From assembly GCA_964594115.1 (NCBI GenBank), contig CAZQLD010000007.1:1-53830 (forward strand): DNA of 53,830 nucleotides. The letters run 5' to 3'. A program made the position numbers and the translations under genes. The stretch comes from Candidatus Woesearchaeota archaeon. Lineage in GTDB: Archaea > Nanobdellota > Nanobdellia > Pacearchaeales > GW2011-AR1. Within the stretch, counting starts at the first letter, position 1. Every line of letters starts with the position of its first letter. Of the stretch, positions 8,218 to 43,121 are shown piece after piece. The notes under the pieces were generated by a model. The model was given only the letters and a program-made list of their open reading frames with translations. It searched no databases and was not told where the DNA came from.

Positions 8218-8218
8218 A

Positions 8219-14288: not shown

Positions 14289-14374
14289 AAGGTTTTTAAT
14301 TAGATAAATCTTTCTATAATCATAAAATTTAGAAAGAGAAAACTAGGAGAGAGACTGGACAAAAAAGAGGTCAG

Positions 14375-15283: not shown

Positions 15284-15345
15284 AGGGATAGATTTATAAA
15301 ATACAGTTCTCTTTTAAGTTTATAAAAAGAGGCAAAATAAAAAAG

Positions 15346-16095: not shown

Positions 16096-16122
16096 GACCA
16101 TTAATAATTTTACAAATAGAAA

Positions 16123-20523: not shown

Positions 20524-20592
20524 AATGCTTGTTGTTTATAAATATATTTCTTAAGATAATAATTCTTTTAAACCCCTTAACTATCCAAATTT

Positions 20593-22830: not shown

Positions 22831-22863
22831 GTATATTTTAAACATAAACTATTTAAATAGATT

Positions 22864-24061: not shown

Positions 24062-24778
24062 TTAATTATCAACATATCTATCTAATATTTTATCCAAACC
24101 TCTTTCTTTTATCCAATTTTCATTTAAAGCAGGATCATCAAAACTTCCATCTAAATGGAGATAATTAAAACCTCCTTCTCCAAAACTAGCTGGTCCTTTA
24201 TCATCTACTACTCCAATTTCATTTATTGTTTGCCTTGTGCTCCATCCACTAACACCCTTTTCACATACTCCTCTAAAAATATATTTTAATCCTAAATCAG
24301 TTCCAGGCCAGAAATAGTTCTTAGAAAATAGCTTATCTTTAATCTTACTTAACCACGATTTGCCCCTTAAATCTTCAACTACTTTCCAAAACCAAAAAGT
24401 ATTTCTTCGCCCACGCTGATTTTCTGCTGTATAAGAAACAGGAATTGTGGAAAACCCTCTTCTCTCACAATTATATGCTCCAGCATGCTTATTAAAATAT
24501 TCTCTTTGAAATATAAGTGCTATTTTATCTTTTTCTAATACAGTTACAATACAATCCTTTCTTCCTCTCTCTTTAGGATCCTCTATTCTTATTCTTTCAG
24601 AGTACTTTTTGTCTTCTTCTGATAAGATTACTGTTCCATCTTGTAAAATTTTATTTAATATAATTTCTAATTTAATTCCCTTGTAAGTAACATTTTGGAA
24701 ATCTCCTTTGTCAATTTTAACCTGCCTCTTTAAATCTTTATCTTCTCCCATTTTAACATCTTTCATCAAAAGAACCAC
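24062..24778 (-). CDS. Hypothetical protein (last gene of beta-barrel operon A)
   Basis: 238-aa ORF overlapping the upstream gene; no motif recognised. Confidence 0.65.
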   Translation of the reverse strand: MVLLMKDVKMGEDKDLKRQVKIDKGDFQNVTYKGIKLEIILNKILQDGTVILSEEDKKYSERIRIEDPKERGRKDCIVTVLEKDKIALIFQREYFNKHAGAYNCERRGFSTIPVSYTAENQRGRRNTFWFWKVVEDLRGKSWLSKIKDKLFSKNYFWPGTDLGLKYIFRGVCEKGVSGWSTRQTINEIGVVDDKGPASFGEGGFNYLHLDGSFDDPALNENWIKERGLDKILDRYVDN

Positions 24779-25115
24779 AAAGTCTCCAAAAGTCTTCTAA
24801 CCAAGAAGTTTTTGAAAATTTCTTTCTCCTTTTTTCAATTTCTGCTAATAGATATTCTCTTGCAGATTCCACTTCTAAAGGGCTGAATTGTTTACCAATA
24901 TAATTTCCAACATCATAAAAACCCTTAAATATTTTTTCTATTTTAGATAAATTTTCTCTGTCAAAACTAAATCTATCAGGATAAGATTCGCTAAGAGATA
25001 ATTTTAAACCTATTTCATATGCAGATAATGCCTCAATTCTTGCTTTCTTTGCTACTCCCTTTAAATTTCTATCTAGCTCTTCTAAAACTCTTTTAAGATA
25101 GGGTGTTGTTTTCAT
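24753..25115 (-). CDS. Uncharacterised helical protein, paralog of 38948-39298
   Basis: ATG 25115 follows a GGAGG SD; shares NYxGxQFxPLEVxSARExLLxEIEKR with its paralog. Confidence 0.8.
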   Translation of the reverse strand: MKTTPYLKRVLEELDRNLKGVAKKARIEALSAYEIGLKLSLSESYPDRFSFDRENLSKIEKIFKGFYDVGNYIGKQFSPLEVESAREYLLAEIEKRRKKFSKTSWLEDFWRLCGSFDERC

Positions 25116-25116
25116 C

Positions 25117-25743
25117 TTACTTTCCTCCAAATTTATATTGCAAACTAATAAAAATCATATCATCCTTGTTGTTTCTAAGAACATCTGTATCATAAGACAA
25201 CAATGCACTAAGGTTTTTCGTTATATTTACTGTAAGAGAAGGTCCTATATAGAAAAAAGGCTTTTTCCCATCATCTTTTTTTGCATAACCTAATAAGCCT
25301 GCTTTAAATGTATCATTAAGCTTATAATCTATTGTTGGAATAAAATAAAAATGATTTGCTGACAGGTCATTTAGCCCCCAAAAATATCTTAACTGAGAGT
25401 TTATTGTTAATTTATCATCTAAAGCTTTTATTTGATAATCTGTCCTTATTCCCATCCAGCTTCTATCTTTATTATCAGACTTAAAGTAAAAATAAGGGGT
25501 AAAATTGCCAAACTTCCTTCCTAACATTAAATCAGTTCTCTGAGTTCCTGAAGGTGCAGTATGAATAAAGGGCTTAAATTTAAAAACATCATTTCCTTTA
25601 GTATAACTTAATTCTGTTGAAAATAATTTTATTGTTTCATTTTCAGAGGCTCTTACATTTTTAACACCAGCAAAAAGTACCAAAGGTACTAAAATAGGAG
25701 CTACTATTTTTCTTACAAAGCTTTTAATTCTTGAGCTTTTCAT
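25117..25743 (-). CDS. Secreted predicted beta-barrel protein (small, roughly 8-12 strands)
   Basis: Signal peptide ending VRA; alternating amphipathic strands with aromatic girdle residues; ends FISLQYKF-GGK. Confidence 0.65.
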   Translation of the reverse strand: MKSSRIKSFVRKIVAPILVPLVLFAGVKNVRASENETIKLFSTELSYTKGNDVFKFKPFIHTAPSGTQRTDLMLGRKFGNFTPYFYFKSDNKDRSWMGIRTDYQIKALDDKLTINSQLRYFWGLNDLSANHFYFIPTIDYKLNDTFKAGLLGYAKKDDGKKPFFYIGPSLTVNITKNLSALLSYDTDVLRNNKDDMIFISLQYKFGGK

Positions 25744-26927
25744 TTTTTACCCCCTAAAGGAATATACAAACTAACACTAACATAACTCCTGTCTTTTCTG
25801 TCTTCAAAGAACTGATGTCCTGCTTCTAATTTTACTGGACCTTTCCCTAGAACGCCATGAACTCCATAAGAGTCACTTACTCCTCCAATTCCATTTGTAT
25901 AAGTTCCATAAATTCCTAGATTTCCAAACTGATAGCCTAAATCTCCTTCAATGTATCCTTTTCTTTTTCCAGTTGTATTAATATTCCCTGATACTCTAAA
26001 AGCTAGTCCTTTTTTGCTTCTTTCAACAACAGTTGGTGGCTCAATTGTTGTAACAGGAGAGTTTATTACATGAGGGCTAAGTATGTAGCCCTGATTTCTT
26101 CCTACAAACGCAGGTCCGCTTCCGTTTTTGCTAAAAGTAGGGTTTTCAGCTGTAGTGGATTTAAAAGCAATATTTTCAGAACCATGTTTCCAATCATAAA
26201 TTAATATAGTCCTGTTTCCCCATTTAACATCTCCATGCCTCATAAAATATGCTCCAAGTTTCTTTGTTCTAATGTCATTATCTGGAAGCAATAAACCAAC
26301 TCCTAACTGATGGTTTTTGTCCATGTTCCAAATAGTTTTTCCACTAAAATAATTAATATCCCCTTCAGGAGTGTCAACTTTATCAATTCCAGCTCCAAAA
26401 TTCCATGTTTCTCCAAATCCGTGCTCAAATCCTGCTCCAACCCTTCTGCTGTCGCTTGAAAAACTATCTTCTATGTTTAGAAATAAGTCTAAATCTCCAA
26501 AACTAGTAATTCCCTCCATACCTATTCCTTGCTTGTCTCCTGATTCTCCAAAAACACTAGCAGAATATTCTAAATCTCCAGTTTTAAATCTTGGTATAAT
26601 TAAACCATAAGAATTCCAGTCAGTATCTTTTCCACCTACTTCTCCGTTAAAATGATAACTTCTGAAAATTTCATTAAACCTGCTATACTTGCCGTCAACA
26701 GGAGCAATTCCAATTGTACCTTTAGTCAGATGCTCATCCTTACTTTCAGTATGTTCTAATCTTGTTCTAACAGAATAATTATTTTTTAGAAAATTATTAA
26801 AAGTTACAGGGTTACTTAATGTTCCTGAGTTAGCTGCATTTGCATTTCCAATAATTCCAGCTAAAGTTGTCACAATACCTACCGCAAGTTTTTTCCATAA
26901 TGGCATTTTTTTAGGTTTCATTTTCAC
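25740..26927 (-). CDS. Secreted predicted large beta-barrel (porin-like) protein
   Basis: Signal peptide ending ANA; many Gly/aromatic amphipathic strands; ends YVSVSLYIPL-GGKK. Confidence 0.6.
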   Translation of the reverse strand: MKMKPKKMPLWKKLAVGIVTTLAGIIGNANAANSGTLSNPVTFNNFLKNNYSVRTRLEHTESKDEHLTKGTIGIAPVDGKYSRFNEIFRSYHFNGEVGGKDTDWNSYGLIIPRFKTGDLEYSASVFGESGDKQGIGMEGITSFGDLDLFLNIEDSFSSDSRRVGAGFEHGFGETWNFGAGIDKVDTPEGDINYFSGKTIWNMDKNHQLGVGLLLPDNDIRTKKLGAYFMRHGDVKWGNRTILIYDWKHGSENIAFKSTTAENPTFSKNGSGPAFVGRNQGYILSPHVINSPVTTIEPPTVVERSKKGLAFRVSGNINTTGKRKGYIEGDLGYQFGNLGIYGTYTNGIGGVSDSYGVHGVLGKGPVKLEAGHQFFEDRKDRSYVSVSLYIPLGGKK

Positions 26928-26933
26928 TTAGAA

Positions 26934-27689
26934 TTAAAATCCATAACCTATCCCTACTCCTCCATAGGTGAATTGTTCTGTTGTGTCATCATTTAGAGAA
27001 AGTTGTCTTCTTACAAATCCGTTTATATTCCAGCTTCCTTTTCCTATTCTCACTGAAATTCCAGGAGAAACATGTCTAAATCCATCAATCCCATACATAT
27101 CCCTTGTATAACCCATAGATATTTCAGGAGCTACTGAGACTTCTGCTCCTGCAATTTTCCCTATTGGGAATGCTTTTGAGATTTTTCCTGAAATTGATTC
27201 ACCGTCTGGAGCACCATCTTTAGCAAACATATGAAGCCCGCCAAAACGGGCATCAATAAATCCATTATAAGAAAGTTCTCCTCCGACAAGATAATCAGAT
27301 CTCCACTTATCAGAAACAGGAAAAGTCCAGTTCATAAAAGTTCCACTTAAAGATAATTTATTTGTCAAAGAATGTGTGTAAGTAATCCATGAATCTATTT
27401 CTTGCTTCCCACTATCTTCTCCTCCTCCAATAGCATTAGAATGAAAAAGATTTCCTGAAATAGGGCCCTTGTTGATGCTAAGAAAACTCTGGCTAGATCT
27501 TCTAGCAATTCTGTCCCCAGAAGGAATAACCCAGTCACTTACTATGCTTGTTTCAGCATAACCTCTAATTGGTTCATCTTTAACTTTTTCTAAAGAACCA
27601 CACCCGATAGGCAGGAAAGTTAAAAGAGTGACTAGACCTCCAGCCACAGCATTTCTTATTCTTGATTTAAATGATTTTTCTACTTTCAT
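26934..27689 (-). CDS. Secreted predicted beta-barrel protein resembling TIGR02001/TorF-like putative porins
   Basis: Signal with LPIGC; VSDWV, EIDSWITY and WTFP; C-terminal GGVGIGYGF. Likely start ATG 27689. Confidence 0.7.
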   Translation of the reverse strand: MKVEKSFKSRIRNAVAGGLVTLLTFLPIGCGSLEKVKDEPIRGYAETSIVSDWVIPSGDRIARRSSQSFLSINKGPISGNLFHSNAIGGGEDSGKQEIDSWITYTHSLTNKLSLSGTFMNWTFPVSDKWRSDYLVGGELSYNGFIDARFGGLHMFAKDGAPDGESISGKISKAFPIGKIAGAEVSVAPEISMGYTRDMYGIDGFRHVSPGISVRIGKGSWNINGFVRRQLSLNDDTTEQFTYGGVGIGYGF

Positions 27690-27691
27690 TT

Positions 27692-27710
27692 TATACATAT
27701 ATTATGTGTT
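27692..27710. promoter_or_regulatory. Imperfect inverted-repeat operator TATACATA-N3-TATGTGTT
   Basis: Matches the perfect palindrome at 31415-31433 with the same spacing; lies between the TATA (about 27728-27737) and the start. Confidence 0.45.
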
Positions 27711-27835
27711 TACTACTCATAAGTAATGTATAAACTTTTGAAAGGAATATAAATATTTTTATTAAACTATATAAACTAGTATAAATATATATACATTTTA
27801 GAAAAGCTTTTAAAGGCTGGTTTCTTAGTTGTTTT

Positions 27836-28519
27836 ATGAGAAAACCATCCTTGCATATTGAAATAGAAAATTTAATAAGAAAAAGGCATGAAATTCTTTT
27901 AAGAGAGCATATAAAACTTAAAAAAAAGAAAATTTACAAGATTGATAACTATAAGTTAGTTGTTTATCCTGATGTTTTCCCCCCTTTTGATGACTCTTTA
28001 TTTTTTTACAGATTCCTTAAAAATTTAAAAAATCCTGGCAGTGTATTAGATATGGGAACAGGGTCTGGCGTTCTTTCTTTGGCTGTAAATAAAACAGCTA
28101 AGGAAATCATAGCTGTGGATATTAATAAAGAGGCGATAAAGTCGCTTAAAGAAACAATAAAAGCCAATAAATTAGAAAAGATAAAAGCAAAATTTAGCAA
28201 CATATTTTCTAATATAAACAAAAAATTTGATACAATCACTTTTAATCCTCCATTTATGTATTTTAAACCAAAAAACAACCTAGAAAAAGCAATTTGCAAT
28301 CAAAACTATAAAGATTTAGAGAGATTTTTCAAACAAGTAAGAAAGTATCTAAAGAAAAAAGGCAAAATTTATATGATTTTTTCAGACATTGGGGATATAA
28401 ATTATTTAAAAAGATTGATTGAAAAAAATAAATTTAAATATAAAATTCTAAAAGAGAAAAAAGCCATCCCTTTAGTAGGAAATGAAAGGTTTTATTACTA
28501 TATTTTTGAGATAAAATGA
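27836..28519 (+). CDS. HemK/PrmC-family SAM-dependent methyltransferase
   Basis: VFPPFDDS, LDMGTGSG and FNPPF. Confidence 0.88.
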   Translation: MRKPSLHIEIENLIRKRHEILLREHIKLKKKKIYKIDNYKLVVYPDVFPPFDDSLFFYRFLKNLKNPGSVLDMGTGSGVLSLAVNKTAKEIIAVDINKEAIKSLKETIKANKLEKIKAKFSNIFSNINKKFDTITFNPPFMYFKPKNNLEKAICNQNYKDLERFFKQVRKYLKKKGKIYMIFSDIGDINYLKRLIEKNKFKYKILKEKKAIPLVGNERFYYYIFEIK

Positions 28520-29406
28520 AAAGAAAACTTGTAAAGCAAGGAGCAGCAACAATGATGATTAGCCTGCCCAGCAAATGGATTAAGGCTAATGAGCTTAATA
28601 AGGGAGATGAAATAGAGATAGATGAAAAGCAAAATTCTATTATTATTGGTTTAGGAGGGAAAAAATCTAAAAGACAGACAGAGATGACTCTTGCTTCATC
28701 AACAGAATCTTCAGTAAGAACTATTTTAACTAATGCCTATAGACTTGGTTATGATAAAATAAATCTAAATTTTCAAGATAAAAAAGCATTAAAAATAATA
28801 CAAAATACAGTAAATCATAATTTAATAGGTTTTGAAATAATTAAAAAAACAAATAAAAACTGTGAAATAGAGAATATAACAGAACCTTCTAAAGAGCAAT
28901 TTGATAATATTTTTTCTAAAATATTTCTTAATATAGATGAGTTATTTATAATAGCAGAAAACATGCTGCATGGTAGGAAAAAAGAATTTGAAGAAATAGA
29001 GCAAAAAATACAGCAGTATGATAATTTTTGCAGAAGAGTCATAGCTAAAAATGAGCTTTATGGAATATATCAGCTAAAATGGGCTTTTCATGCTGAACTT
29101 ATACATGCACAAAGAGAGCTTTATTTGTTATTAAAATACTTAGAAAAAAATAAAACAAAAGCAGATAAACTTGTTTTCCAGTTATTAGAAGATTGTAAGA
29201 AAGTATTCAAGATATTGAAACAAGCATATAAAGAGAAAAGCATTGAAAAATTAGAGAAAATTCATGATTTGGAAAAAGAAATGATTTATAAAAAAGGTTA
29301 TTCTTCATTAAAAAAATCAGTGGGCAGGATAGAGGCTCATCATATCCTTGCTGCTATCAGAAACTTCTACCTTGCTTCCTCTCCTTTGATTGGGACTTTT
29401 ATCTAA
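28516..29406 (+). CDS. AbrB-domain/PhoU-like regulator (archaeal phosphate uptake regulator family), copy 1
   Basis: N-terminal RKLVKQGAATMMISLPSKW...GDEIEI swapped hairpin, AYRLGYD, and helical PhoU-like repeats. Confidence 0.85.
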   Translation: MKRKLVKQGAATMMISLPSKWIKANELNKGDEIEIDEKQNSIIIGLGGKKSKRQTEMTLASSTESSVRTILTNAYRLGYDKINLNFQDKKALKIIQNTVNHNLIGFEIIKKTNKNCEIENITEPSKEQFDNIFSKIFLNIDELFIIAENMLHGRKKEFEEIEQKIQQYDNFCRRVIAKNELYGIYQLKWAFHAELIHAQRELYLLLKYLEKNKTKADKLVFQLLEDCKKVFKILKQAYKEKSIEKLEKIHDLEKEMIYKKGYSSLKKSVGRIEAHHILAAIRNFYLASSPLIGTFI

Positions 29407-31239
29407 GTTTTCATTTCCTTGAACTTCCCAGCCAGTACCCCAGTTATTTTTTTTAGGTATTTTATTAAAATCAACATTTCCTTCTTCATCAGTTATCATG
29501 TATAAAGCTAAAGCTGTGTTGATTAATTTCTGTTGATGATAAGGCAAGTAACTTCCATAGCCTGATTCTTTATATCCTCCTGCCCTTTCAACAATTTTCC
29601 ACTTTGGAAAATAATTTATACTTCCTGTTTTTACTTTTGCTGTATTTATTTCTTCAAGGGAAGAAAAATAATTTGTAAAAACATCTGCAATAGTCCCTTG
29701 AGGAACAAAACACTGTTTTAGATACGTTACACCATGAACTACTTTAGCAGTATTATGTGCTATATCTGAATCAGAATTTTCATTTCTTAAAAGGAAGTAT
29801 TTTGGAACAAAACTTGGAAAAAGTCTTTCTTCTTTATCTGCCTTATATGTTTTTATAAGCTCTTTGTTCAGATAGCAAGCTCTTAACCAAGATGAAATAA
29901 GTCTTTTAGGCATTAAATGAATATCTCTTGAAAATCTGGTAAGCTCTTTTATATCTAGCTCTCTTTTTCCAAATTTAACTTCTGGAAGATTTTCTTTTGC
30001 TTTTTCCATATAAGGGACCAGTATTTCAAAAGCAAGATCCTTATTAGAGCTGTCAAGATTATCTAAACTAAAATTTCTATAATCTTCTCTCATTAGAATG
30101 TCCCTTAATCTTGGTCTTGTTTCGCTATTCCTAGCAGTGATTATTCCTCCAGTTACAGCTCCAGCCAGTACTGCTCCTGTGCAAATAGGAACTGAGTATT
30201 TTAGAAATTTAGCAAAAGCTTCTTTTAGTTTTCCAGCTAAACCAGAATTTATTTTTTCAATGTATCTTTTAACATCATACATGTTTCTGATTTCTTTTTT
30301 AGGGTTAATTGTTAAACATCTATAAATTAATTTTTTCCATTCTTTAGGAACTTTATTAAGAGCTTTTTTTAAATTTTTTTCATGTATTTCTTCTGTAATT
30401 TCTTCTAAAAATTTTTCTCCTTCATTTAACTGAACTCTATATAATTTTCCATTAATTCTAATTGACTTTCCAGCAATATCAGAGCAAATCTTGTATTGAA
30501 GGGGGGTTTTTCCTGTTAATGAATATAAGAAGGTTCCGCCAAGAGCATAAACTTCTGTTCTACAGGTTGCCTTAGATGGATGTCCTGAAACTAGGGCATT
30601 AAGCAAGCTAGGATGTGTATATGGTGTTCCTCCTCTTGTAGGCATGATATTTTCATGAATCTCGGTTCTTCTAGCTGCATTTTGTAAGTCAGAGATTTTA
30701 ACATTTCCTGACCTTGTTATAATTATATTTGAAGGTTTAATATCTCTATGCAAAATAAATTGTTCATCATTAAGATACTGTAATGCTCTTACAACTTGTC
30801 CGAATATTTTAATGACTCTCTTTTTATCTTTGAGAGGGCCTGTTGTTTGAATATGAGCTTCTAAGTCTGTTCCTTCATAATAAGCTTCTGCATTTACTGT
30901 CTTTCCGTCTAATCTAAAATTATCAACAACTTCTACAATATTTGGATGCTGTATTTCATTAGAAACATTTACTTCTGCTATATCTCCATCTCTCTTACTT
31001 TTATTTATTAAAGTGCATATTGAATCTGGGTCAATTTCTGTTTTTGGAATTTTTAATACCCTTAGCTTACTAACTTCTCCTGCAGAGTATCTTGCAAGAT
31101 AAGCTTCTCTTGTTTGCCCTTCTCCTAATTTATGCAGGATTTCATAGCCTCTTTCTTTTAATATTCTTGTTTCTTCTTCTGTTAAGCCATTTTCCTGTTC
31201 AATAAGAGTTTCTGCTTTTAATGTATCTGCAAGAATCAT
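29317..31239 (-). CDS. Membrane-anchored Ser/Thr protein kinase 1 with C-terminal ectodomain
   Basis: LGEGQT, VLK, HPNIV, HRDIKPSN, DLQ in place of DFG, GGTPY; TM at about aa 349-369. Confidence 0.9.
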   Translation of the reverse strand: MILADTLKAETLIEQENGLTEEETRILKERGYEILHKLGEGQTREAYLARYSAGEVSKLRVLKIPKTEIDPDSICTLINKSKRDGDIAEVNVSNEIQHPNIVEVVDNFRLDGKTVNAEAYYEGTDLEAHIQTTGPLKDKKRVIKIFGQVVRALQYLNDEQFILHRDIKPSNIIITRSGNVKISDLQNAARRTEIHENIMPTRGGTPYTHPSLLNALVSGHPSKATCRTEVYALGGTFLYSLTGKTPLQYKICSDIAGKSIRINGKLYRVQLNEGEKFLEEITEEIHEKNLKKALNKVPKEWKKLIYRCLTINPKKEIRNMYDVKRYIEKINSGLAGKLKEAFAKFLKYSVPICTGAVLAGAVTGGIITARNSETRPRLRDILMREDYRNFSLDNLDSSNKDLAFEILVPYMEKAKENLPEVKFGKRELDIKELTRFSRDIHLMPKRLISSWLRACYLNKELIKTYKADKEERLFPSFVPKYFLLRNENSDSDIAHNTAKVVHGVTYLKQCFVPQGTIADVFTNYFSSLEEINTAKVKTGSINYFPKWKIVERAGGYKESGYGSYLPYHQQKLINTALALYMITDEEGNVDFNKIPKKNNWGTGWEVQGNENLDKSPNQRRGSKVEVSDSSKDMMSLYPAH

Positions 31240-31403
31240 TTTTCTTCCTCCAATATATCTATTGTAAGTTTAGTTATAGTGCCTGGGCTCAATTGTTTTT
31301 CTAGAATTCTTGGTATGACTATAATTGCCTGGCTACCATGTTTAGCAATTTTCTTTGTTATGATGAACTGCTTTTTATTCTGTTTTACTTTTTCCTTAGT
31401 CAT
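31236..31403 (-). CDS. Small AbrB/SpoVT-type (DUF2080-like) DNA-binding protein
   Basis: IITKKIAKHGSQAIIVIPR...TKLTIDILEE; ATGA overlap with the kinase. Start is 31403 or 31421. Confidence 0.8.
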   Translation of the reverse strand: MTKEKVKQNKKQFIITKKIAKHGSQAIIVIPRILEKQLSPGTITKLTIDILEEEK

Positions 31404-31414
31404 CTTACTGTAGC

Positions 31415-31433
31415 TATACATAAGGTATGTATA
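31415..31433. promoter_or_regulatory. Perfect 8-bp inverted repeat TATACATA-agg-TATGTATA (operator)
   Basis: Directly read; lies between the TATA and the start of the AbrB-kinase unit. Confidence 0.6.
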
Positions 31434-31948: not shown

Positions 31949-31968
31949 TTTTATCTTCTTCTTTCATT

Positions 31969-33501: not shown

Positions 33502-33502
33502 T

Positions 33503-35561: not shown

Positions 35562-35563
35562 TT

Positions 35564-35968
35564 TTAGAACCCCCTATCTACCTTCACTTCAGATACTACT
35601 TTTTCTAAATCTTTTTTCTTTGCTTTAATATCTTTCTCTCTTCTTTCCCTTGAACCAAATTCATTCTTATAATGAAAGCCTCTTCCATCAGCTGTTTTTC
35701 CATCAATATTAATTGTGTAATAAGTAGAACCCCCACTACAACCAGAAGTTTCATATGACCCTAATTGAATTACTGATTTATTTTTTTCTATAGCATTGCT
35801 ATGCTCAGTAAAATAATCAGGAAGTTTAACAGATTTCCTTGATGTATCAGCTTTTTTTGATTTATTTTGCTTCTTAATTTTTCTTGATATTTCTTCATCT
35901 AGCTCAGCACCAGAATTATAAGTTAACTCAGCTAACTTCAATAAGTTTGAATTAATTTCTTTTGCCAT
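35564..35968 (-). CDS. Hypothetical protein with Ser/Gly/Cys/Tyr-rich core
   Basis: 134 aa, coupled to both neighbours; GSYETSGCSGGSTYY segment. Confidence 0.7.
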   Translation of the reverse strand: MAKEINSNLLKLAELTYNSGAELDEEISRKIKKQNKSKKADTSRKSVKLPDYFTEHSNAIEKNKSVIQLGSYETSGCSGGSTYYTINIDGKTADGRGFHYKNEFGSRERREKDIKAKKKDLEKVVSEVKVDRGF

Positions 35969-35969
35969 T

Positions 35970-37319: not shown

Positions 37320-37323
37320 TTTC

Positions 37324-37926
37324 CTACTCCTTCTTAGCTGATTTTTGGGAAGCAATGTAATCAGTTAGGTCTTGACATTTTGTTGCAGCATACAGGAGCT
37401 CGGCGTTTACTTCTGGACGAACTTTACCAAGATTTTCTTTATCCAAATCTACCAATGTTTCACATTTAGAATCTATTTCTGCCACAAGTTCTTTAATTCT
37501 TTCTTCTAATGTTTCGTCTAAACTTACGTAAGCTGCTCGTAGAGATGCCATAGTTGCTACAGAAAGTTGTCCTTCATGATACGCTTTTGCTTTAATTGCT
37601 TGGATGTTTTGTCTTGGTATTTTCCCCTTATATTTAATTATATCAAAATTAGTGAATAATGTTCTCACATCTGGATTAATAGGTTCTCCTAGCTCTGATG
37701 AAGTTTGTAATACATAACCAATTGCACCTTCTTTTGGTAATTCTGAAGCACGATCTGTAATTGTCTTTTTTATTCCGGCAAGGTCAACACCATCCTTATA
37801 TGCATCACGATTTTTTGTTCGTGTTTGGATATTAGCTATTCCACCAATGATCTCAATGGGTTCTCCTGAATCTTCAATGACAAAACCCTTATCTGGGGTT
37901 AAAATAATTTTTTTCAAATTTTCCAT
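37324..37926 (-). CDS. Hypothetical protein
   Basis: 200 aa, tightly coupled in the operon. Confidence 0.7.
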   Translation of the reverse strand: MENLKKIILTPDKGFVIEDSGEPIEIIGGIANIQTRTKNRDAYKDGVDLAGIKKTITDRASELPKEGAIGYVLQTSSELGEPINPDVRTLFTNFDIIKYKGKIPRQNIQAIKAKAYHEGQLSVATMASLRAAYVSLDETLEERIKELVAEIDSKCETLVDLDKENLGKVRPEVNAELLYAATKCQDLTDYIASQKSAKKE

Positions 37927-37928
37927 TT

Positions 37929-38267
37929 TTACAATCCAGCCTCCTTGGCTTTTCTATTATATTTTTCATATTTATCTGAAAAATTTCTAATTAAGGGTCG
38001 CTTACTTGTACGGACATAAACATTTCCTACAGGATTTCCAAGATTCATTGCAACATAACTAGAAATGTAAAGTGTTTGAACTTCAAATCTTCCAAGAGTC
38101 TTAAAATGACGGGATGCTATGGTGTCCTTATAAATAACAAGTTCTTCTCTTCCATCAAAATTTAAAATATCTCTTACCTTAGAAGAACTTGGAAATTTGA
38201 CAACACAATCTAAGGTTTTTGCTTGTCGTATCTTTGATTCTGCTATTTTTTTAGTTTTTTTTGCCAT
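37929..38267 (-). CDS. Hypothetical basic protein
   Basis: 112 aa, in the operon. Confidence 0.65.
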   Translation of the reverse strand: MAKKTKKIAESKIRQAKTLDCVVKFPSSSKVRDILNFDGREELVIYKDTIASRHFKTLGRFEVQTLYISSYVAMNLGNPVGNVYVRTSKRPLIRNFSDKYEKYNRKAKEAGL

Positions 38268-38281
38268 TTTACTTTCTTATT

Positions 38282-38575
38282 TTAGAATATCCCTGCTTTT
38301 TCTTGCAAAGATTGTGGTGTTCCTTTTTTTCTGAATAATTTTACTAATTTGCCTATTTTTTGTGGAAGGTTATATCCAGGGCATTGTTTAGCCAATCTTT
38401 CATTATAAATCTTAGAACCGAAACTAACACTATGTCCACTTATATTCTCTCCATCAAGTTCAAAAGGTTCATTATCTTTAATTTCTGGCGCTGCTACACA
38501 AGGATTTTTAGTCAAAGTACAATACCAACTATTTTTCCTTGGACTTGTATATGCGCAACCTGGTGTTCGACACAT
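38282..38575 (-). CDS. Cys-rich hypothetical protein (possible metal binding)
   Basis: CRTPGC...CTLTKNPC...QCPGY. Confidence 0.65.
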   Translation of the reverse strand: MCRTPGCAYTSPRKNSWYCTLTKNPCVAAPEIKDNEPFELDGENISGHSVSFGSKIYNERLAKQCPGYNLPQKIGKLVKLFRKKGTPQSLQEKAGIF

Positions 38576-38947: not shown

Positions 38948-39298
38948 TTATCTCTTCAAATATTTACGCAAATTTTCCCAAAAAGAAGGTTTAGAATATT
39001 TTCTTTTTCTTTTTTCTATTTCTGATAATAAAAATTCTCTTGCAGAATCTACTTCTAAAGGACCAAATTGAAAACCAACATAATTTGCTTTGCTAAAATA
39101 ATGTTCATGATACACTTCAAAAGCTTCTTGAGGTTTAGGAAATTTATTACCATAATTATTCCAAAAAGAGTAATCTAAACCAAGTTTATATTTTCTTAAA
39201 GATTCTAGTTTTTCTTCTCTAGATAATTTTCTTAGGTCTCTATCAAGACTTCTCAAAGCATATTCAAGATAAGGTGCTGGTTTCAATTTTTTCGCCAT
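38948..39298 (-). CDS. Uncharacterised helical protein, paralog of 24753-25115
   Basis: PYLEYALRSLDRDL...NYVGFQFGPLEVDSAREFLLSEIEKR. Confidence 0.8.
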   Translation of the reverse strand: MAKKLKPAPYLEYALRSLDRDLRKLSREEKLESLRKYKLGLDYSFWNNYGNKFPKPQEAFEVYHEHYFSKANYVGFQFGPLEVDSAREFLLSEIEKRKRKYSKPSFWENLRKYLKR

Positions 39299-39299
39299 T

Positions 39300-39602
39300 T
39301 TATTTTCCTTCTTCTAATTTATTTACTTCAGCCTGTCTCTTTAATAACTCATAAACATAAACCCCTGCGAGATAAGTCGCAAATCTATCACTACAATATT
39401 CATCTGCAAATCTGTCTAATGCTTTTGTAACTTGGGGATTTGTTGAGGAAAGGTGTCCTGTTAACCTTTCTATATTCTTTAGGACTGATTCGAAACCCTC
39501 TCTGTCAAACTGTTCATTATCTCTAAAAAATAAGTCAATTGTGTCCTGTGCCAGTACAGGCAAGCCCTCTGGTGTGTATCTTTCATTTTTCATTTTCCTC
39601 AC
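39300..39602 (-). CDS. Small helical protein of unknown function
   Basis: GLPVLAQDTI...TNPQV...AGVYVYELLKRQAE; start GTG 39602 or ATG 39593. Confidence 0.75.
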   Translation of the reverse strand: MRKMKNERYTPEGLPVLAQDTIDLFFRDNEQFDREGFESVLKNIERLTGHLSSTNPQVTKALDRFADEYCSDRFATYLAGVYVYELLKRQAEVNKLEEGK

Positions 39603-40331
39603 CTAAAATTTATAGCCAAGACTAACGCCACCCCATGTTTTATCTTTGATAAAATCTTCTTGGCTGTATTGTTTATTTACAGAAATATTCAGATTCCAGT
39701 TTCCTTTATTGAGTCCAAGAGAAACTCCAGGAGTAACCTGGGTATGGCCTGTTTTTCCATAGTAATTCTCTATGACCGAAGTGCTTAGACTAGGGGTTAA
39801 TGAAATATCGGTTTTTCCTAGTTTTCCTATTGGAAATTTTTTTGAAATTCTCCAGTAATATCTATTTCCACTTTTAGGGGTTGTTTTAGTTGGGAGTAAA
39901 TGTGTTAATTCAAAGTCTAAATCAAATTTTCCAGAATAATGGGCTCCAGCTTTCAAAACACTATCATAATCTCCAAAAGTTCCAGAAGGGTAGCCCCAAT
40001 ATTCATATCCTCCTCTTATAGAAAATCTATCTGTTATAGGCAAAGAATGGCTTATTCCAAAATCCCTCTCATTAAAAGCACTTTCTTCATATGAATAATT
40101 CTGCCATACAAATCCAGAGAACATATCATTAAAATTTACATTAATTAAGTCTTGTCTAACCTGTCCTTCAACCATTACACCATGTTTTGCAACATAATCT
40201 GAAACAAGGGCGGTTTCAACATAAATATCTGGCTTTTTCATATTATTAAAACAGCCAGAAACTGCTCCTAATAAAGCAGCTAGTCCGGTTATAGCTGCTT
40301 GTTTTATTCTTGAACTCCATTGGTTTTTCAT
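39603..40331 (-). CDS. Secreted predicted beta-barrel protein (TIGR02001/TorF-like), paralog of 26934-27689
   Basis: Signal with VSGC; VSDYV, NERDF and YWGYP; C-terminal WGGVSLGYKF. Confidence 0.75.
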   Translation of the reverse strand: MKNQWSSRIKQAAITGLAALLGAVSGCFNNMKKPDIYVETALVSDYVAKHGVMVEGQVRQDLINVNFNDMFSGFVWQNYSYEESAFNERDFGISHSLPITDRFSIRGGYEYWGYPSGTFGDYDSVLKAGAHYSGKFDLDFELTHLLPTKTTPKSGNRYYWRISKKFPIGKLGKTDISLTPSLSTSVIENYYGKTGHTQVTPGVSLGLNKGNWNLNISVNKQYSQEDFIKDKTWGGVSLGYKF

Positions 40332-40474
40332 TTTCCTTCCTCTAAAATATCTATTTTGATTTTCACAAGCATCTGGGGTTTGAGATGTCCTGCCAGCACA
40401 CTTGGAATGACGATTACTGCCTGCTTTCCGTGCTTTGCAATTTTCTTTGTTATTATGTATGAGTTTTGTACCAT
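40328..40474 (-). CDS. Small AbrB/SpoVT-type (DUF2080-like) protein, paralog of 31236-31403
   Basis: Manual translation MVQNSYIITKKIAKHGKQAVIVIPSVLAGHLKPQMLVKIKIDILEEGK; ATGA overlap with the barrel gene. Not in the ORF track. Confidence 0.85.
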   Translation of the reverse strand: MVQNSYIITKKIAKHGKQAVIVIPSVLAGHLKPQMLVKIKIDILEEGK

Positions 40475-40534
40475 TTTCCCATAGTCTTTGATTTATTATT
40501 CAAAAGTGACAAAAGAAAGAAATTAATATCTTTC

Positions 40535-40558
40535 TGATATTATTGATATCACTGATAT
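40535..40558. repeat. Three TGATAT direct repeats with 9-bp period in the divergent promoter
   Basis: TGATAT at 40535, 40544 and 40553, just upstream of the BRE/TATA GAAAACCTTAAAAA. Confidence 0.55.
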
Positions 40559-40601
40559 TAAAAATAGAAAACCTTAAAAACCCCTAAATCTTCCATACAG
40601 T

Positions 40602-41510
40602 ATGGAAAGAAGACTCATAAAACAAGGAGGAGGAGGCTTTACTATCTACCTTCCAAAAAAATGGGTAGATAAAAAAGGCCTGCATGAAGGAGACATCGTA
40701 GATGTGAAAGAAATAGATAGTTCTTTGATAATTGGAAGTGAAATTAAAGGGAGAGAAGAGATTATAATAGAGATTAATGAAGAAAATAAAGAAGATATAG
40801 GAGCTATTCTTACACATGCGTATAGAAGAGGATTTAACAGAGTAATATTGAAGGGAGTGGATAGTGGGCTGGCAAGAAAAGCGAGGCAGGTAACAAAAGA
40901 TCTGCTTTTAGGTTTTGAAATAACAGGAAAATCTGAAAAAGAAGTAAAAATAGAAAATATTTCAGAGCCAACAGAACAAAAATATGATGTTATGTTAAGA
41001 AAGATTTTTTTGATAATAAAAGAGACTCAAAATATGATTATTGAAGATTTTCAGCATATTTATGAAAACTGGGATGAAATTGAAGAAATGAGAAAAAATC
41101 AGGATAAGTTTATATTATTTTGCAGAAGATTGCTAATAAAGGAAAAATATGAAAAAGAACCTGTTTTAGAGTGGGAGCTTCTAACTTTTTTAATGCATAT
41201 AGAGCATGCTTATTTTTATTTATATAAATATGCTAAAGAAAATAAAGTTAAGATAGATAAAAATGCTGTGGAGTTATTAAAAAAACTTGAAGAGCAATTT
41301 TCTCTGTATCAGGATGCGTATTTTCATAAAAACATAGAGAATTTGTATAAAATAATGAAGCAAAAGACAAAGTTCCAGTTTGGCAAGTGTTTAGAATTAA
41401 TTGAAAAATCAAAAGGTAAAAATGCAGTTATATCCTCTTATATTAGAGAATTATTCAGGTTGCAACAAATAGGATGCAGCCCTATTTTATCAAAGAATCT
41501 TTCATACTAG
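40602..41510 (+). CDS. AbrB-domain/PhoU-like regulator, copy 2
   Basis: RRLIKQGGGGFTIYLPKKW...GDIVDV, AYRRGF, and QDKFILFCRR. Confidence 0.85.
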   Translation: MERRLIKQGGGGFTIYLPKKWVDKKGLHEGDIVDVKEIDSSLIIGSEIKGREEIIIEINEENKEDIGAILTHAYRRGFNRVILKGVDSGLARKARQVTKDLLLGFEITGKSEKEVKIENISEPTEQKYDVMLRKIFLIIKETQNMIIEDFQHIYENWDEIEEMRKNQDKFILFCRRLLIKEKYEKEPVLEWELLTFLMHIEHAYFYLYKYAKENKVKIDKNAVELLKKLEEQFSLYQDAYFHKNIENLYKIMKQKTKFQFGKCLELIEKSKGKNAVISSYIRELFRLQQIGCSPILSKNLSY

Positions 41511-43121
41511 CTATTTTTTAATTATCTCAAGAGTTTCTTTTATATTTTTTTGGTTTTCTATAAATCTCTGTTCTTGTTCTTTCCTTTTTTCTGCTTCTAT
41601 TCTTTCTTTCTGTTTTTTTGCTTCATATGATTCTCTTGCATTTTTCCAGTCATTTTCAAACTCTCTATATTTATCTGTTCTCATCCGTATCATAATCATA
41701 TCATGATAATTATGAGCTATTTGCCAAATTTCCCAATAAGCTTTAGAGCCCTTTTCTTCTAAAAATGGCTCTATTGTTTTATAATTGAAATCTGTATCAT
41801 TTTTATCCAGTTTAGCATCCATCATTGCTTCAAAAACACCATTGGGGTCAAAATAAGCAGCTAACCCGACTTTTCTGTCCTTGAATTTAAATAAAGCTGC
41901 TTCAAGTTTGCCATCTTCTGTAAAAATATCATAAGGATGGCTAAAAGCTATTCCTAAATCTTCTTTTCCTCTTCTCTGAAGATATAAATTAACTACCTCT
42001 CTTTTCTTTTTAGCTTCTGCATTTTCGTTAAGTTGCTCAACTTTATCTTCCAAAACACCAGTTGCTTTTTGAGTACTAATGAGGCCAGCTGTTGCACCTG
42101 CAAGTATAGTTGCAGCAGCTGCTATGCTTCCATATCTTTTTAGTCTTGAACGTAATGATGTTTTTTTATATTTTTTAATTGCTTTTTCTAAGCCATTTTT
42201 CATTTCTAAACCATTTTTATATCTTCTTACTGGATTTAGGGATAAGGATTTTTCCAAAAAACTTCTAAAAGCTCTTGGAACATTTTTTATTTTTTGGGAA
42301 AGTTCTCTTTGGTTTGTTTTAAACCCTTGATAAACTCTTTTTTTAGTGAGCATTTCATAGAATATAGAGCCTAGACTCCAAACATCTGCTCTTGAACTGG
42401 GCTCAGCATTTTCTTCAAAAACTTCAGGAGCTCTATAGTTTTTATCTCCATGAGGCCCCCTTTTACTTCCATTTCCTCCAATTGAAATGCAGGTAGTAGA
42501 ACCAAAATCACCTAAATAAGCTCTCCCATCGTTAATAAGGATGTTTGAAGGCTTGACATCGCTATGAGCCTCTCTATGTTCGTGTATGTAAGCAAGCGCC
42601 TCTGTAATATCTTTTATTATTTTTATATTTTCATCCAAGCTTAAACTATGCAACCTACTAGAAAGGTCTCCTTCTTCATAAACAGGCATAGCAATATACA
42701 TTTTTCCTTTTCTATCTCTTTCTATAATTCTTGGAACAACATGGCTATGAGCAGCATAAAGAGGAATCGCTTCTCTCCTCATAACATCTTCTTCTGTCCA
42801 TTTTCTGTCCTCCATTTGTTTTTTTGCTGTTTCATTAGGACTAAATATTTTTATAGCCCATTTTTGATCTCCCGCATCTATATATTCATCTACAATCCCC
42901 CAACAACCATACCCTAATTCTTTCCCAGTTGGCTTAAATGTATCGCTATCTATATACTCTGTAACTGCTCTTTCTCTTTGTTCCTTTATCGCGAAAAGAT
43001 TTTCTCTATTTTGAGTAAAAAATTTCCTTTTATATTCTCTATTCTTCTCTTTCATACCTCTTATAGCTGCATCTACAACAACTTCAGAACTTGCACCTAC
43101 TAAATATTTAAGATTACTCAT
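41511..43121 (-). CDS. Membrane-anchored Ser/Thr protein kinase 2 with C-terminal ectodomain
   Basis: LGYGCWG, AIK, HSDVKPSN, DFG, YRAPE and DVWSLG; TM at about aa 331-349. Confidence 0.92.
   Translation of the reverse strand: MSNLKYLVGASSEVVVDAAIRGMKEKNREYKRKFFTQNRENLFAIKEQRERAVTEYIDSDTFKPTGKELGYGCWGIVDEYIDAGDQKWAIKIFSPNETAKKQMEDRKWTEEDVMRREAIPLYAAHSHVVPRIIERDRKGKMYIAMPVYEEGDLSSRLHSLSLDENIKIIKDITEALAYIHEHREAHSDVKPSNILINDGRAYLGDFGSTTCISIGGNGSKRGPHGDKNYRAPEVFEENAEPSSRADVWSLGSIFYEMLTKKRVYQGFKTNQRELSQKIKNVPRAFRSFLEKSLSLNPVRRYKNGLEMKNGLEKAIKKYKKTSLRSRLKRYGSIAAAATILAGATAGLISTQKATGVLEDKVEQLNENAEAKKKREVVNLYLQRRGKEDLGIAFSHPYDIFTEDGKLEAALFKFKDRKVGLAAYFDPNGVFEAMMDAKLDKNDTDFNYKTIEPFLEEKGSKAYWEIWQIAHNYHDMIMIRMRTDKYREFENDWKNARESYEAKKQKERIEAEKRKEQEQRFIENQKNIKETLEIIKK

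What the first reader, a model, noticed from the sequence alone, without database searches (positions are those of the whole stretch)
39603..40331. Barrel paralog pair carries a textbook BAM beta-signal and a lipobox-like cysteine
Seen: this protein and 26934-27689 align end to end (YVETALVSDYV/YAETSIVSDWV, ISKKFPIGK/ISKAFPIGK, VTPGVS/VSPGIS, KGNWNLN/KGSWNIN). They end GGVSLGYKF and GGVGIGYGF and have a Cys at the end of the signal (VSGC, PIGC). Established: terminal Phe with aromatic at -3 and alternating hydrophobics is the motif recognised by BamA, and the SDYV...E-D...YP pattern recalls TIGR02001/TorF-like putative porins. Inference: keeping the beta-signal in two diverged archaeal copies suggests continued use of a bacterial-type insertase, possibly the host's.
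Basis: partly seen in the sequence, partly recalled or inferred. Interest (0 to 1): 0.8.

Follow-up and report, generated by a model that had tools for sequence, protein, structure and literature searches.

The report
Porin-like beta-barrels in a DPANN archaeon
A tiny symbiotic archaeon, from a group not known to have an outer membrane, encodes several proteins predicted to fold like the barrel-shaped pores of bacterial outer membranes and ending in the bacterial-style tail motif, so where and how they insert is an open question.

Summary
Window 39603-40331(-) (242 aa) and 26934-27698(-) (254 aa) are end-to-end paralogs (30% identity, E 2e-33). Both have a signal peptide ending in a conserved Cys and a C-terminal Y-x-F.

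An AlphaFold2 model (pLDDT 90.6) gives a barrel of about 12 strands. Its Foldseek matches are all bacterial outer-membrane barrels, with the best TM-scores to PcoB and NanC.

An exhaustive profile search finds 347 representative clusters. 129 of the 174 family sequences end in F, W or Y. Most of the 11 contexts sampled carry archaeal-type marker genes; one looks bacterial.

The TorF/TIGR02001 resemblance is real but below threshold. The window proteins do not hit the model, while 15 of 150 relatives do (best 33 bits against a cutoff of 47).

The pair is part of a duplicated module: a membrane Ser/Thr kinase, an AbrB-type regulator, a 48-aa mini-ORF, barrel(s) and a ~120-aa partner. Copy B adds two unrelated barrel-like proteins.

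No Omp85/BamA gene lies in the window. The "host BAM" idea is unsupported and topologically awkward. My best reading is a regulated, lipid-anchored, porin-like surface barrel whose membrane and insertion route are unknown. I found no prior report.

The parts
39603..40331 (-). Barrel A, the finding: a 242-aa secreted protein predicted to be an OM-type beta-barrel of about 12 strands
   Evidence: ORF. AF2 pLDDT 90.6, pTM 0.79. Foldseek hits to PcoB, NanC, FapF, OmpG and LpxR. 25 close homologs; 347 representative clusters by profile search.
40251..40331 (-). Signal peptide with lipobox-like end (residues 1-27, ...LLGAVSG-C27)
   Evidence: Sequence read directly. Model helix 3-25. Cys27 invariant in A1. 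Lipobox proteins and AliA are reported as prevalent in DPANN (PMC12462473).
39606..39635 (-). C-terminal strand TWGGVSLGYKF with the beta-signal-like Y-x-F end
   Evidence: Last model strand is 231-241. Family C-terminus statistics.
26934..27698 (-). Barrel B, a 254-aa paralog of barrel A
   Evidence: 30% identity, E 2e-33, end to end. It has its own orthologs, P0046 (51%), P0038 (50%) and P0039 (40%), so the split is old.
25740..26927 (-). 395-aa secreted protein, predicted barrel of about 20 strands with an internal loop; OprD/Occ-like fold
   Evidence: Weak Pfam OMP_b-brl hit, E 0.0026. AF2 pLDDT 75.3. Foldseek top hits are Occ/OprD porins, TM about 0.45-0.5. No detectable homology to barrel A. 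Conserved next to the module in L005.
25117..25743 (-). 208-aa secreted barrel-like protein ending ...SLQYKFGGK
   Evidence: Weak Pfam hits to Phenol_MetA_deg (4e-4) and DUF2490 (1e-3). Orthologs in L001 and L005. Not homologous to barrel A by hhalign. No structure was predicted.
24753..25130 (-). 125-aa cytoplasmic partner protein of module B
   Evidence: 41% identical to the 116-aa protein of module A, E 1e-28. Two copies also in L005.
38948..39298 (-). 116-aa cytoplasmic partner protein of module A
39300..39602 (-). 100-aa protein that starts at the base next to the barrel A stop; conserved with the module
   Evidence: Orthologs in L001 and L005. No family hit.
40328..40474 (-). 48-aa mini-ORF whose TGA overlaps the barrel A ATG (ATGA); looks like a single AbrB/SpoVT domain by eye
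   Evidence: Conserved copies in the window and in L001, L005 and L006.
31236..31421 (-). Second copy of the mini-ORF, overlapping the start of kinase B in the same ATGA way
40602..41510 (+). Regulator A: AbrB/SpoVT-type N-terminal domain plus a ~250-aa helical C-terminal part, divergent from barrel A
   Evidence: Pfam MazE_antitoxin, E 1.5e-4. 31% identical to regulator B, E 4e-38. 72-74% identical orthologs in the same position in L001 and L005.
28516..29406 (+). Regulator B, a paralog of regulator A
41511..43121 (-). Membrane-spanning Ser/Thr protein kinase A
   Evidence: Pfam Pkinase, E 9e-36. A hydrophobic segment follows the kinase domain. Syntenic in L001, L005 and L006.
29317..31239 (-). 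Membrane-spanning Ser/Thr protein kinase B
   Evidence: Pfam Pkinase, E 9e-29..

Best explanation
Barrel A and barrel B are Sec-exported proteins of an archaeal, mainly DPANN, family. The family folds like a small bacterial outer-membrane barrel of about 12 strands and is distantly related to the bacterial TorF/TIGR02001 putative porins.

In the Pacearchaeota clade the signal peptide ends in a lipobox-like Cys. The mature protein is therefore probably lipid-anchored by the archaeal lipoprotein pathway, with only about 8 residues between the anchor and the first strand.

I propose that it forms a regulated, porin-like solute channel in a lipid layer at the cell surface or at the host contact. 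The conserved C-terminal hydrophobic-x-aromatic-x-Phe strand would then be kept as a determinant of barrel closure and membrane insertion that works without a known BAM.

The genes belong to a duplicated envelope module. It comprises a membrane Ser/Thr kinase, an AbrB-type regulator, a 48-aa AbrB-like mini-protein, one or more barrels and a ~120-aa cytoplasmic partner. This suggests that expression responds to an external signal.

Shown: paralogy, family size, conservation of the Cys and the C-terminus, archaeal context, module duplication.
Predicted: the barrel fold.
Inferred: lipidation, membrane embedding, channel function, BAM independence.
For: - Paralogy: E 2e-33. Both subfamilies have their own orthologs.
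- Fold: AF2 pLDDT 90.6 with about 12 strands. 197 PDB matches at E<=1e-3; all 50 listed are bacterial OM barrels or a model or engineered variant of one, best TM to the 12-stranded PcoB and NanC.
- Alternating hydrophobic and polar faces on most strands.
- C-terminus: 129 of 174 end aromatic, with a hydrophobic -3/-5 pattern.
- Cys27 is invariant in 26 of 26 sequences.
- Lipobox proteins and AliA are reported in DPANN (PMC12462473).
- Archaeal marker genes next to homologs. Pacearchaeota naming and synteny. Archaeal-type TIM in the window.
- TorF link: 15 of 150 relatives hit TIGR02001 and no other model is hit more than once.
- Dedicated regulators sit directly upstream and divergent: AbrB-type in L001, L005 and L006; TrmB-type in L007, L008 and L009.
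- Two further barrel-like proteins in module B.
- Pacearchaeota are reported as strongly host-attached with minimal metabolism (PMC7906910), which fits a need for uptake pores.
Against: - No outer membrane is known for Pacearchaeota. The earlier proposal of two membrane systems in Micrarchaeota was reinterpreted as an S-layer, at least for the one cultivated strain (bioRxiv 10.1101/2021.04.28.441871, abstract).
- No Omp85-like insertase was found in the window.
- Localisation, lipidation and conductance are all untested.
- The fold is a prediction, and TM-scores to solved barrels are moderate (0.54-0.66).
- The dyad hydrophobicity pattern is weak in the first two strands.
- Invariant polar residues (E88, D90, Q221 and others) could mark an enzyme or binding site rather than a pore. 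LpxR, a barrel lipid hydrolase, is among the structural matches.
- An open pore tethered to a cytoplasmic membrane would be harmful unless gated.
Confidence: 0.5

Rival explanations
1. One reading: the barrels are delivered to a Gram-negative bacterial host and assembled into its outer membrane by the host BAM. This would explain why the beta-signal is kept.
For: The C-terminal motif is conserved across the family. Pacearchaeota are reported as strongly host-attached (PMC7906910). No insertase gene lies in the window.
Against: BAM receives substrates from the periplasm, so an external protein would first have to cross the host outer membrane (established knowledge). The lipobox Cys with an 8-residue linker keeps the barrel at the archaeon's own membrane. 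All cultivated DPANN have archaeal hosts (PMC11291902 abstract). The family also occurs in archaea with contigs of 273-399 kb and 47-60% GC, whose lifestyles are unknown.
Confidence: 0.06
2. These archaea have an outer lipid membrane of their own (a diderm-like envelope). The four barrels are its resident porins, inserted by an unrecognised archaeal insertase that reads the C-terminal motif.
For: Three mutually unrelated barrel-like families with signal peptides lie in one 54-kb window. The short anchor-to-barrel linker matches bacterial OM lipoprotein barrels, where anchor and barrel share one membrane. The family is widespread in archaeal contexts.
Against: No imaging evidence exists for Pacearchaeota, and other DPANN show an S-layer over a single membrane. 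No insertase, lipoprotein-sorting or lipid-transport candidates were seen here. Many DPANN lack lipid synthesis.
Confidence: 0.18
3. The barrel is not a channel. It is a membrane-surface enzyme or lipid-handling protein, like the OM barrel enzymes LpxR, PagP and OMPLA, used to process or capture host lipids.
For: LpxR is among the structural matches, TMq 0.54. E88, D90, G51 and Q221 are nearly invariant across 150 distant representatives. DPANN depend on host lipids (PMC6349945).
Against: No sequence match to any enzyme family. The closest sequence family, TorF, is annotated as a putative porin. No catalytic motif was identified.
Confidence: 0.12
4. An ordinary bacterial OMP gene on a mis-binned or chimeric contig, or a recent dead-end transfer from bacteria with no function in the archaeon.
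For: The fold and motif are typically bacterial. At least one distant family member sits on a 2.3-Mb contig with bacterial-looking genes. GAPDH and other genes in the window are of a bacterial-like type.
Against: The window GC is a uniform 28-35%. There is synteny of about ten genes with a Pacearchaeota contig. Archaea/eukaryote-specific genes flank homologs in five independent contexts. There are two old paralogs, each with orthologs, and 170 representative clusters at E<=1e-10. All of this indicates long-term retention under selection.
Confidence: 0.03

Closest known systems
TorF family putative porins (NCBIfam TIGR02001 gcw_chp; Pfam PF09694 Gcw_chp)
   Same: Similar size (about 230-250 aa). 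Signal peptide. An N-terminal ...SDY... strand, an E-x-D motif and a terminal aromatic. Fifteen of 150 family representatives match TIGR02001 almost end to end; the best covers model positions 8-214 of 244 at E 4.2e-8. Two match PF09694.
   Different: The window proteins do not match the model at all, and no relative reaches the curated cutoff (33 vs 47.15 bits). TorF is a bacterial family with no proven function, whereas this family sits mainly in archaeal contexts. The Pacearchaeota clade adds a lipobox Cys.
12-stranded specific channels of the bacterial outer membrane: KdgM/NanC family and PcoB
   Same: Best structural superpositions: PcoB 7pge TMq 0.56/TMt 0.66; NanC 2wjq 0.54/0.62; VhGalP 8xua 0.50/0.56. 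Same strand number and size.
   Different: 7-11% sequence identity and no profile match. The resemblance is in fold only.
Bacterial outer-membrane beta-barrels assembled by BAM (the class)
   Same: Signal peptide, antiparallel barrel with an even strand count, dyad hydrophobicity and a C-terminal aromatic-x-Phe beta-signal core.
   Different: The organism is an archaeon with no known outer membrane. No Omp85/BamA was found in the window. The Gly of the canonical beta-signal is shifted: it lies three residues before the terminal Phe rather than five.
Archaeal lipobox lipoproteins (AliA/AliB pathway, Haloferax volcanii)
   Same: A signal peptide ending V-S-G-C fits the lipobox. Lipoproteins are predicted to be prevalent in DPANN, and AliA is present there (PMC12462473).
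   Different: I am not aware of any archaeal lipoprotein with a transmembrane-type beta-barrel as its passenger (own knowledge, not checked). Lipidation was not tested here, and barrel B has a non-canonical P-I-G-C.
OprD/Occ substrate-specific porins (for the 395-aa neighbour only)
   Same: Foldseek top hits, TM about 0.45-0.51. A large barrel with an internal loop.
   Different: The model has about 20 strands against 18. Identity is 8-11%, with only a weak OMP_b-brl Pfam hit. Model confidence is lower (pLDDT 75).

Membership tests
TorF family / TIGR02001 (gcw_chp) | HMM score at or above the curated cutoff (47.15 bits) | tested here: not met
   Barrel A and barrel B give no hit at E<=1. The best relative, P0059, scores 33 bits. 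15 of 150 relatives hit below the cutoff.
TorF family / Pfam PF09694 Gcw_chp | Pfam gathering-threshold match | tested here: not met
   No hit for the window proteins. Two of 150 relatives hit, best E 3.4e-4.
TorF family / TIGR02001 | Bacterial (proteobacterial) distribution | tested here: not met
   Most of the 11 contexts sampled (8 by my count) carry archaeal-type marker genes. One looks bacterial.
Bacterial-type outer-membrane beta-barrel (OMBB class) | N-terminal signal peptide | tested here: met
   Basic n-region plus a hydrophobic helix at residues 3-25. 126 of 149 representatives have an N-terminal hydrophobic stretch. No dedicated predictor such as SignalP was available.
Bacterial-type outer-membrane beta-barrel (OMBB class) | Closed antiparallel barrel with an even strand number and a lipid-facing hydrophobic belt | tested here: inconclusive
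   The AF2 model has 13 DSSP elements, about 12 strands, at pLDDT 90.6. PDB matches are all OM barrels. The dyad pattern is clear on strands 3-12 and weak on strands 1-2.
Bacterial-type outer-membrane beta-barrel (OMBB class) | C-terminal beta-signal (hydrophobic-x-aromatic-x-Phe/Trp at the very end) | tested here: met
   ...SLGYKF and ...GIGYGF. 129 of 174 family sequences end aromatic, with the -3/-5 pattern.
Bacterial-type outer-membrane beta-barrel (OMBB class) | Resides in an outer membrane and is assembled by Omp85/BamA | not testable with these tools
   No Omp85/POTRA hit among the window ORFs scanned.
Lipobox lipoproteins | [LVI][ASTVI][GAS]C at the end of the signal peptide, with the Cys conserved | tested here: met
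   Barrel A has V-S-G-C. The Cys is invariant in 26 of 26 sequences. Barrel B has P-I-G-C, a deviation at -3.
Lipobox lipoproteins | Actual lipid modification and a processing pathway in the organism | not testable with these tools
   Only literature: AliA is present in DPANN, with gaps (PMC12462473). No AliA model was available to scan.
KdgM/NanC porin family | Sequence-profile membership | tested here: not met
   No Pfam or PDB sequence hit. Fold similarity only.
Omp85/BamA (considered for the 395-aa neighbour) | 16-stranded Omp85 barrel with POTRA domains | tested here: not met
   No POTRA or Bac_surface_Ag hit. The model has about 20 strands, and its best matches are Occ/OprD porins.

The most novel reading that the evidence does not exclude
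DPANN archaea (Pacearchaeota and several other lineages) carry a repertoire of genuine membrane-embedded, OM-type beta-barrels. At least three unrelated barrel-like families lie in this one window. That would mean either a lipid-containing outer layer not yet recognised in these archaea, or a BAM-independent route that inserts beta-barrels into archaeal membranes, their own or the host's. Either would break the rule that transmembrane beta-barrels belong only to bacterial, mitochondrial and plastid outer membranes.
Probability: 0.35. Interest if true: 0.9.

Novelty: new variant of a known kind. Interest (0 to 1): 0.7.

Why it matters
Transmembrane beta-barrels and their C-terminal sorting signal are regarded as a hallmark of bacterial, mitochondrial and plastid outer membranes, made by Omp85 machines that are thought to be absent from archaea.

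This family has 347 representative clusters, sits in contexts that are mostly archaeal where they could be checked, keeps the terminal motif and is under dedicated regulators. It gives a concrete handle on three questions:
- What does the envelope of uncultured DPANN archaea look like?
- How do these metabolically minimal symbionts exchange solutes or lipids with their hosts?
- Can beta-barrels be inserted without BAM, or into ether-lipid membranes?

The proteins are small and could be expressed, refolded and tested directly.

Tried and rejected
- Direct HMM tests of barrel A and barrel B against Pfam and NCBIfam gave nothing. The TorF link appeared only when 150 relatives were scanned. My first guess of ten likely members missed them all; the second set found P0059.
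- Sequence searches of PDB with profiles A3 and A1 found nothing significant.
- The genome-contig scan failed with the broad alignment A2. With A1 it returned only the Pacearchaeota RBG_13_36_9 contig, so no organism names were obtained for distant members.
- The second word-index search, with profile A2, added only two proteins.
- Cluster look-ups gave no organism names.
- P0059, the relative most like TorF, sits on a 1.1-kb contig, so its domain of origin is unknown.
- I considered the tightly packed downstream genes part of the system: AAA/MoxR-like, VWA+HExxH, radical SAM-SPASM, polyprenyl synthase. I rejected this because they are not conserved with the barrel in related loci.
- I considered the 395-aa neighbour as a possible Omp85-like insertase. 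I rejected this because it models as an OprD-like porin with no POTRA domain.
- I tested whether the 208-aa and 395-aa proteins are distant paralogs of barrel A. hhalign gave probabilities of 18% and 8%, so they are not.
- I had assumed the 300-aa regulators were AbrB-PhoU fusions. No PhoU evidence was found, so I call them AbrB-type only.
- Literature searches for OM-type barrels in Pacearchaeota or other DPANN found no report. The nearest is a passing mention of a possible PopA relative in Altiarchaeales (PMC12228718).
- The TorF literature search returned only unrelated matches.
Full report
**1. The observation**

Window 39603-40331(-) encodes a 242-aa protein and 26934-27698(-) a 254-aa protein. 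All the quoted strings are present.

BLASTP aligns the two proteins almost end to end at 30% identity, E 2e-33. No ORF of at least 60 aa lies on the opposite strand within the finding.

**2. The fold**

Neither protein matches any Pfam or NCBIfam model. The first homolog search returned 25 relatives, aligned with barrel B as A1.

With A1, AlphaFold2 gives a confident model: mean pLDDT 90.6, pTM 0.79.
- It has an N-terminal helix at residues 3-25, which is the signal peptide.
- Thirteen DSSP strand elements follow, which amount to about 12 antiparallel strands.

Foldseek against the PDB returns 197 matches at E<=1e-3. All 50 listed are bacterial outer-membrane barrels, or a model or engineered variant of one.
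- The best superpositions are onto 12-stranded channels: PcoB 7pge (TMq 0.56/TMt 0.66) and NanC 2wjq (0.54/0.62).
- FapF, OmpG and LpxR follow.

Most strands show one hydrophobic and one polar face across the alignment. The pattern is weak on the first two strands. I could not inspect coordinates, so barrel closure and the hydrophobic belt remain predicted.

**3. The family and where it lives**

An exhaustive profile search with A1 finds 347 representative clusters (50% identity level) at E<=1e-3 and 170 at E<=1e-10.

The closest named homolog is from Candidatus Pacearchaeota archaeon RBG_13_36_9. That contig shares about ten syntenic genes with the window at 41-74% identity.

I sampled 11 genomic contexts across the family. 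Archaeal or eukaryote-type markers are nearby in these:
- P0011: Ribosomal_L35Ae.
- P0053: TrmB and Trm5/Tyw2.
- P0143, on a 273-kb contig: RLI/ABCE1, GCD14 and TrmB.
- P0153: Sec61_beta, NAC and TrmB.
- P0134, on a 399-kb contig: Orc1/Cdc6.
- P0019, P0029 and P0050 share the Pacearchaeota-type module or its neighbours.

P0098 and P0086 are ambiguous. P0168 lies on a 2.3-Mb contig that looks bacterial.

The window itself is archaeal by content:
- An archaeal-type TIM: NF003302 at 224 bits against a cutoff of 132, with the general TIGR00419 model below its cutoff.
- An archaeal class I aldolase type.
- A sulfhydrogenase-like NiFe hydrogenase.
- A uniform GC of 28-35%.

No tRNA or Rfam feature is present. 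The family is therefore mainly archaeal, with a bacterial fringe.

**4. The two motifs**

C-terminus. Of 174 family sequences, 119 end in F, 7 in W and 3 in Y.
- The third-last residue is mostly Y, V, F, I or W.
- The fifth-last is L, I, V or A.
- This is the aromatic-x-aromatic core of the bacterial beta-signal (established knowledge), though in barrel A the Gly lies three residues before the terminal Phe rather than five.
- A subset of distant members instead carries a basic, probably helical, C-terminal extension (...LLRK).

N-terminus. Cys27 is invariant in A1, and V-S-G-C fits the lipobox.
- Barrel B's P-I-G-C deviates at -3.
- In the wider family only about 29 of 149 representatives have such a Cys, so lipid anchoring is a clade feature.
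- Lipobox proteins are predicted to be prevalent in DPANN, and the archaeal lipidation enzyme AliA occurs there (PMC12462473). No bacterial machinery needs to be invoked.
- The first strand starts about 8 residues after the Cys. If the Cys is lipidated, the barrel must sit at the same membrane as the anchor.

**5. The TorF/TIGR02001 lead**

The window proteins fail the model outright. When 150 relatives were scanned, 15 hit TIGR02001, and every other NCBIfam model was hit by at most one member.

The best hit is P0059.
- It matches the A1 profile at E 6.7e-36.
- It covers TIGR02001 positions 8-214 of 244 at E 4.2e-8, scoring 33 bits against a cutoff of 47.15.

Pfam Gcw_chp is hit by two members. 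This is a specific but sub-threshold, superfamily-level relationship. The proteins are not members of the TorF family as curated.

**6. The surroundings: a duplicated module**

The window holds two copies of a larger module.

| Component | Copy A | Copy B |
|---|---|---|
| Ser/Thr kinase | 41511-43121(-) | 29317-31239(-) |
| AbrB-type regulator | 40602-41510(+) | 28516-29406(+) |
| 48-aa-type mini-ORF | 40328-40474(-) | 31236-31421(-) |
| Barrel | 39603-40331(-) | 26934-27698(-) |
| ~120-aa partner | 116 aa, 38948-39298(-) | 125 aa, 24753-25130(-) |
| Other | 100 aa, 39300-39602(-) | methyltransferase 27836-28519(+); 395 aa, 25740-26927(-); 208 aa, 25117-25743(-) |

Pairwise comparisons confirm the paralogy:
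- Regulators: 31% identity, E 4e-38.
- Partner proteins: 41% identity, E 1e-28.
- Kinases: 22% identity, E 2e-10. Each has a hydrophobic segment after the kinase domain.

The mini-ORF's stop overlaps the next gene's ATG, that of barrel A in copy A and of kinase B in copy B.

The same module recurs in L001, L005 and L006. Barrel B has its own orthologs at 40-51% identity, so the A/B split is old.

In three other archaeal lineages the barrel instead has a divergent, mutually homologous TrmB-type regulator directly upstream. A dedicated regulator next to the barrel is thus a recurring theme. This argues for regulated expression rather than a constitutive wall component.

**7. More barrels in module B**

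- The 395-aa protein models as a barrel of about 20 strands with an internal loop (pLDDT 75.3). Its best matches are OprD/Occ porins. It has no POTRA or Omp85 signature.
- The 208-aa protein has weak hits to two OM barrel families, Phenol_MetA_deg and DUF2490, and ends ...YKFGGK. Its structure was not predicted.
- Neither is detectably homologous to barrel A.

One 54-kb archaeal window therefore carries two modelled barrel families plus a third barrel-like family, all with signal peptides.

**8. How it most likely works**

Shown: the paralogy, the conservation, the archaeal context and the module.
Predicted: a bacterial-type barrel of about 12 strands.
Inferred: Sec export, lipidation at Cys27 by the archaeal pathway, embedding in a lipid layer at the surface, a small solute channel, and a C-terminal strand kept for barrel closure and insertion.

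I put about 0.5 on this package. I am much more confident about the fold and family (about 0.85) than about channel function (about 0.4).

Which membrane holds the barrel is unresolved. The candidates are an unrecognised outer layer, the host contact zone, or, unusually, the cytoplasmic membrane.

- BAM acts from the periplasm.
- The anchor is short.
- All cultivated DPANN have archaeal hosts (PMC11291902 abstract).

An enzyme or lipid-handling role cannot be excluded. The grounds for it are the invariant E88, D90 and Q221 and the LpxR-like fold.

**9. Novelty**

Full-text searches found no description of OM-type barrels in Pacearchaeota or other DPANN. The nearest is a passing note of a possible PopA relative in Altiarchaeales (PMC12228718).

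The fold and motif are well known. The setting is the new element: an archaeal, regulated, partly lipobox-bearing family without a known insertase. I therefore rate it a new variant of a known kind, with interest 0.7.

The strongest reading not excluded is that genuine archaeal transmembrane beta-barrels exist, implying a new envelope layer or a BAM-independent insertion route. I give that about 0.35.

Noticed in passing
window 40328-40474 (-) and 31236-31421 (-); L005 11930-12073, 13711-13848, 19427-19561; L001 12486-12623, 17732-17866; L006 6555-6677: A conserved ~48-aa mini-protein (...ITKKIAKHG.QA.I.IP..L...L.P.....I.IDILEE), which by eye looks like a single AbrB/SpoVT swapped-hairpin domain. 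Its stop codon overlaps the ATG of the next gene (ATGA): barrel A in one case, the Ser/Thr kinase in most others.
   Followed up: partly
window 24753-31421 and 38948-43121: The whole neighbourhood is duplicated as a module, not just the barrels: membrane Ser/Thr kinase, AbrB-type regulator, mini-ORF, barrel and a ~120-aa partner. The same module occurs in three related contigs.
   Followed up: yes
window 25740-26927 (-): A 395-aa secreted protein that models as a barrel of about 20 strands with an internal, low-confidence loop (residues 270-300). It resembles OprD/Occ porins. The family ends ...YIPLGGK(K).
   Followed up: yes
window 25117-25743 (-): A 208-aa secreted protein with weak hits to the OM barrel families Phenol_MetA_deg and DUF2490, ending ...YKFGGK. 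The GGK tail after the last strand is shared with the unrelated 395-aa neighbour. Its meaning is unknown.
   Followed up: partly
window 31535-38575 (-): Tightly packed genes downstream of module A: a Cys-rich 97-aa protein, an AAA+ (AAA_5/AAA_lid_2, MoxR-like) 461-aa protein, a radical SAM-SPASM enzyme, a polyprenyl synthase, and a 510-aa protein with an HEVGH motif and a weak VWA hit. They are not conserved with the barrel module. This may be a peptide-modification or MoxR-VWA system. A radical SAM-SPASM gene also lies near a distant barrel in L014.
   Followed up: partly
L007 1258-2001, L008 6401-7204, L009 7056-7802: In three non-Pacearchaeota archaeal contexts (GC 45-60%), a mutually homologous ~245-aa TrmB-type regulator sits directly upstream of the barrel gene and divergent from it.
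   Followed up: partly
family representatives such as P0058, P0083, P0094, P0108, P0128, P0137: A subset of the family does not end in Phe. Instead it carries a short basic C-terminal extension (...GKLLRK...LMGKRK...IGNRIRGR), possibly an amphipathic helix after the last strand.
   Followed up: no
window 27836-28519 (+); L005 16745-17425; L007 2870-3748: An MTS/HemK-like methyltransferase with an NPPF motif lies next to a barrel gene in the window and in L005. L007 has a more distant MTase in the same position. This may be coincidental housekeeping.
   Followed up: no
window 4036-4839 (+): A 267-aa P-loop protein with a Zot-like hit (E 4e-7) sits between a P-type ATPase gene and a glycolysis gene cluster. 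It may be a remnant of a mobile element or virus.
   Followed up: no
window 4950-16749 and 19198-22845: A compact sugar-metabolism set: bacterial-type GAPDH, PGK, archaeal PGI/PMI, PfkB kinase, class I aldolase and a short archaeal TIM. A group-3-like NiFe (sulf)hydrogenase large subunit and a small-subunit-like protein lie nearby. This is typical of fermentative DPANN.
   Followed up: partly
L006 9424-9993 and 10001-10807: Two members of the barrel family lie side by side, a 189-aa copy directly before the 268-aa copy. This suggests local tandem duplication in another DPANN genome.
   Followed up: no
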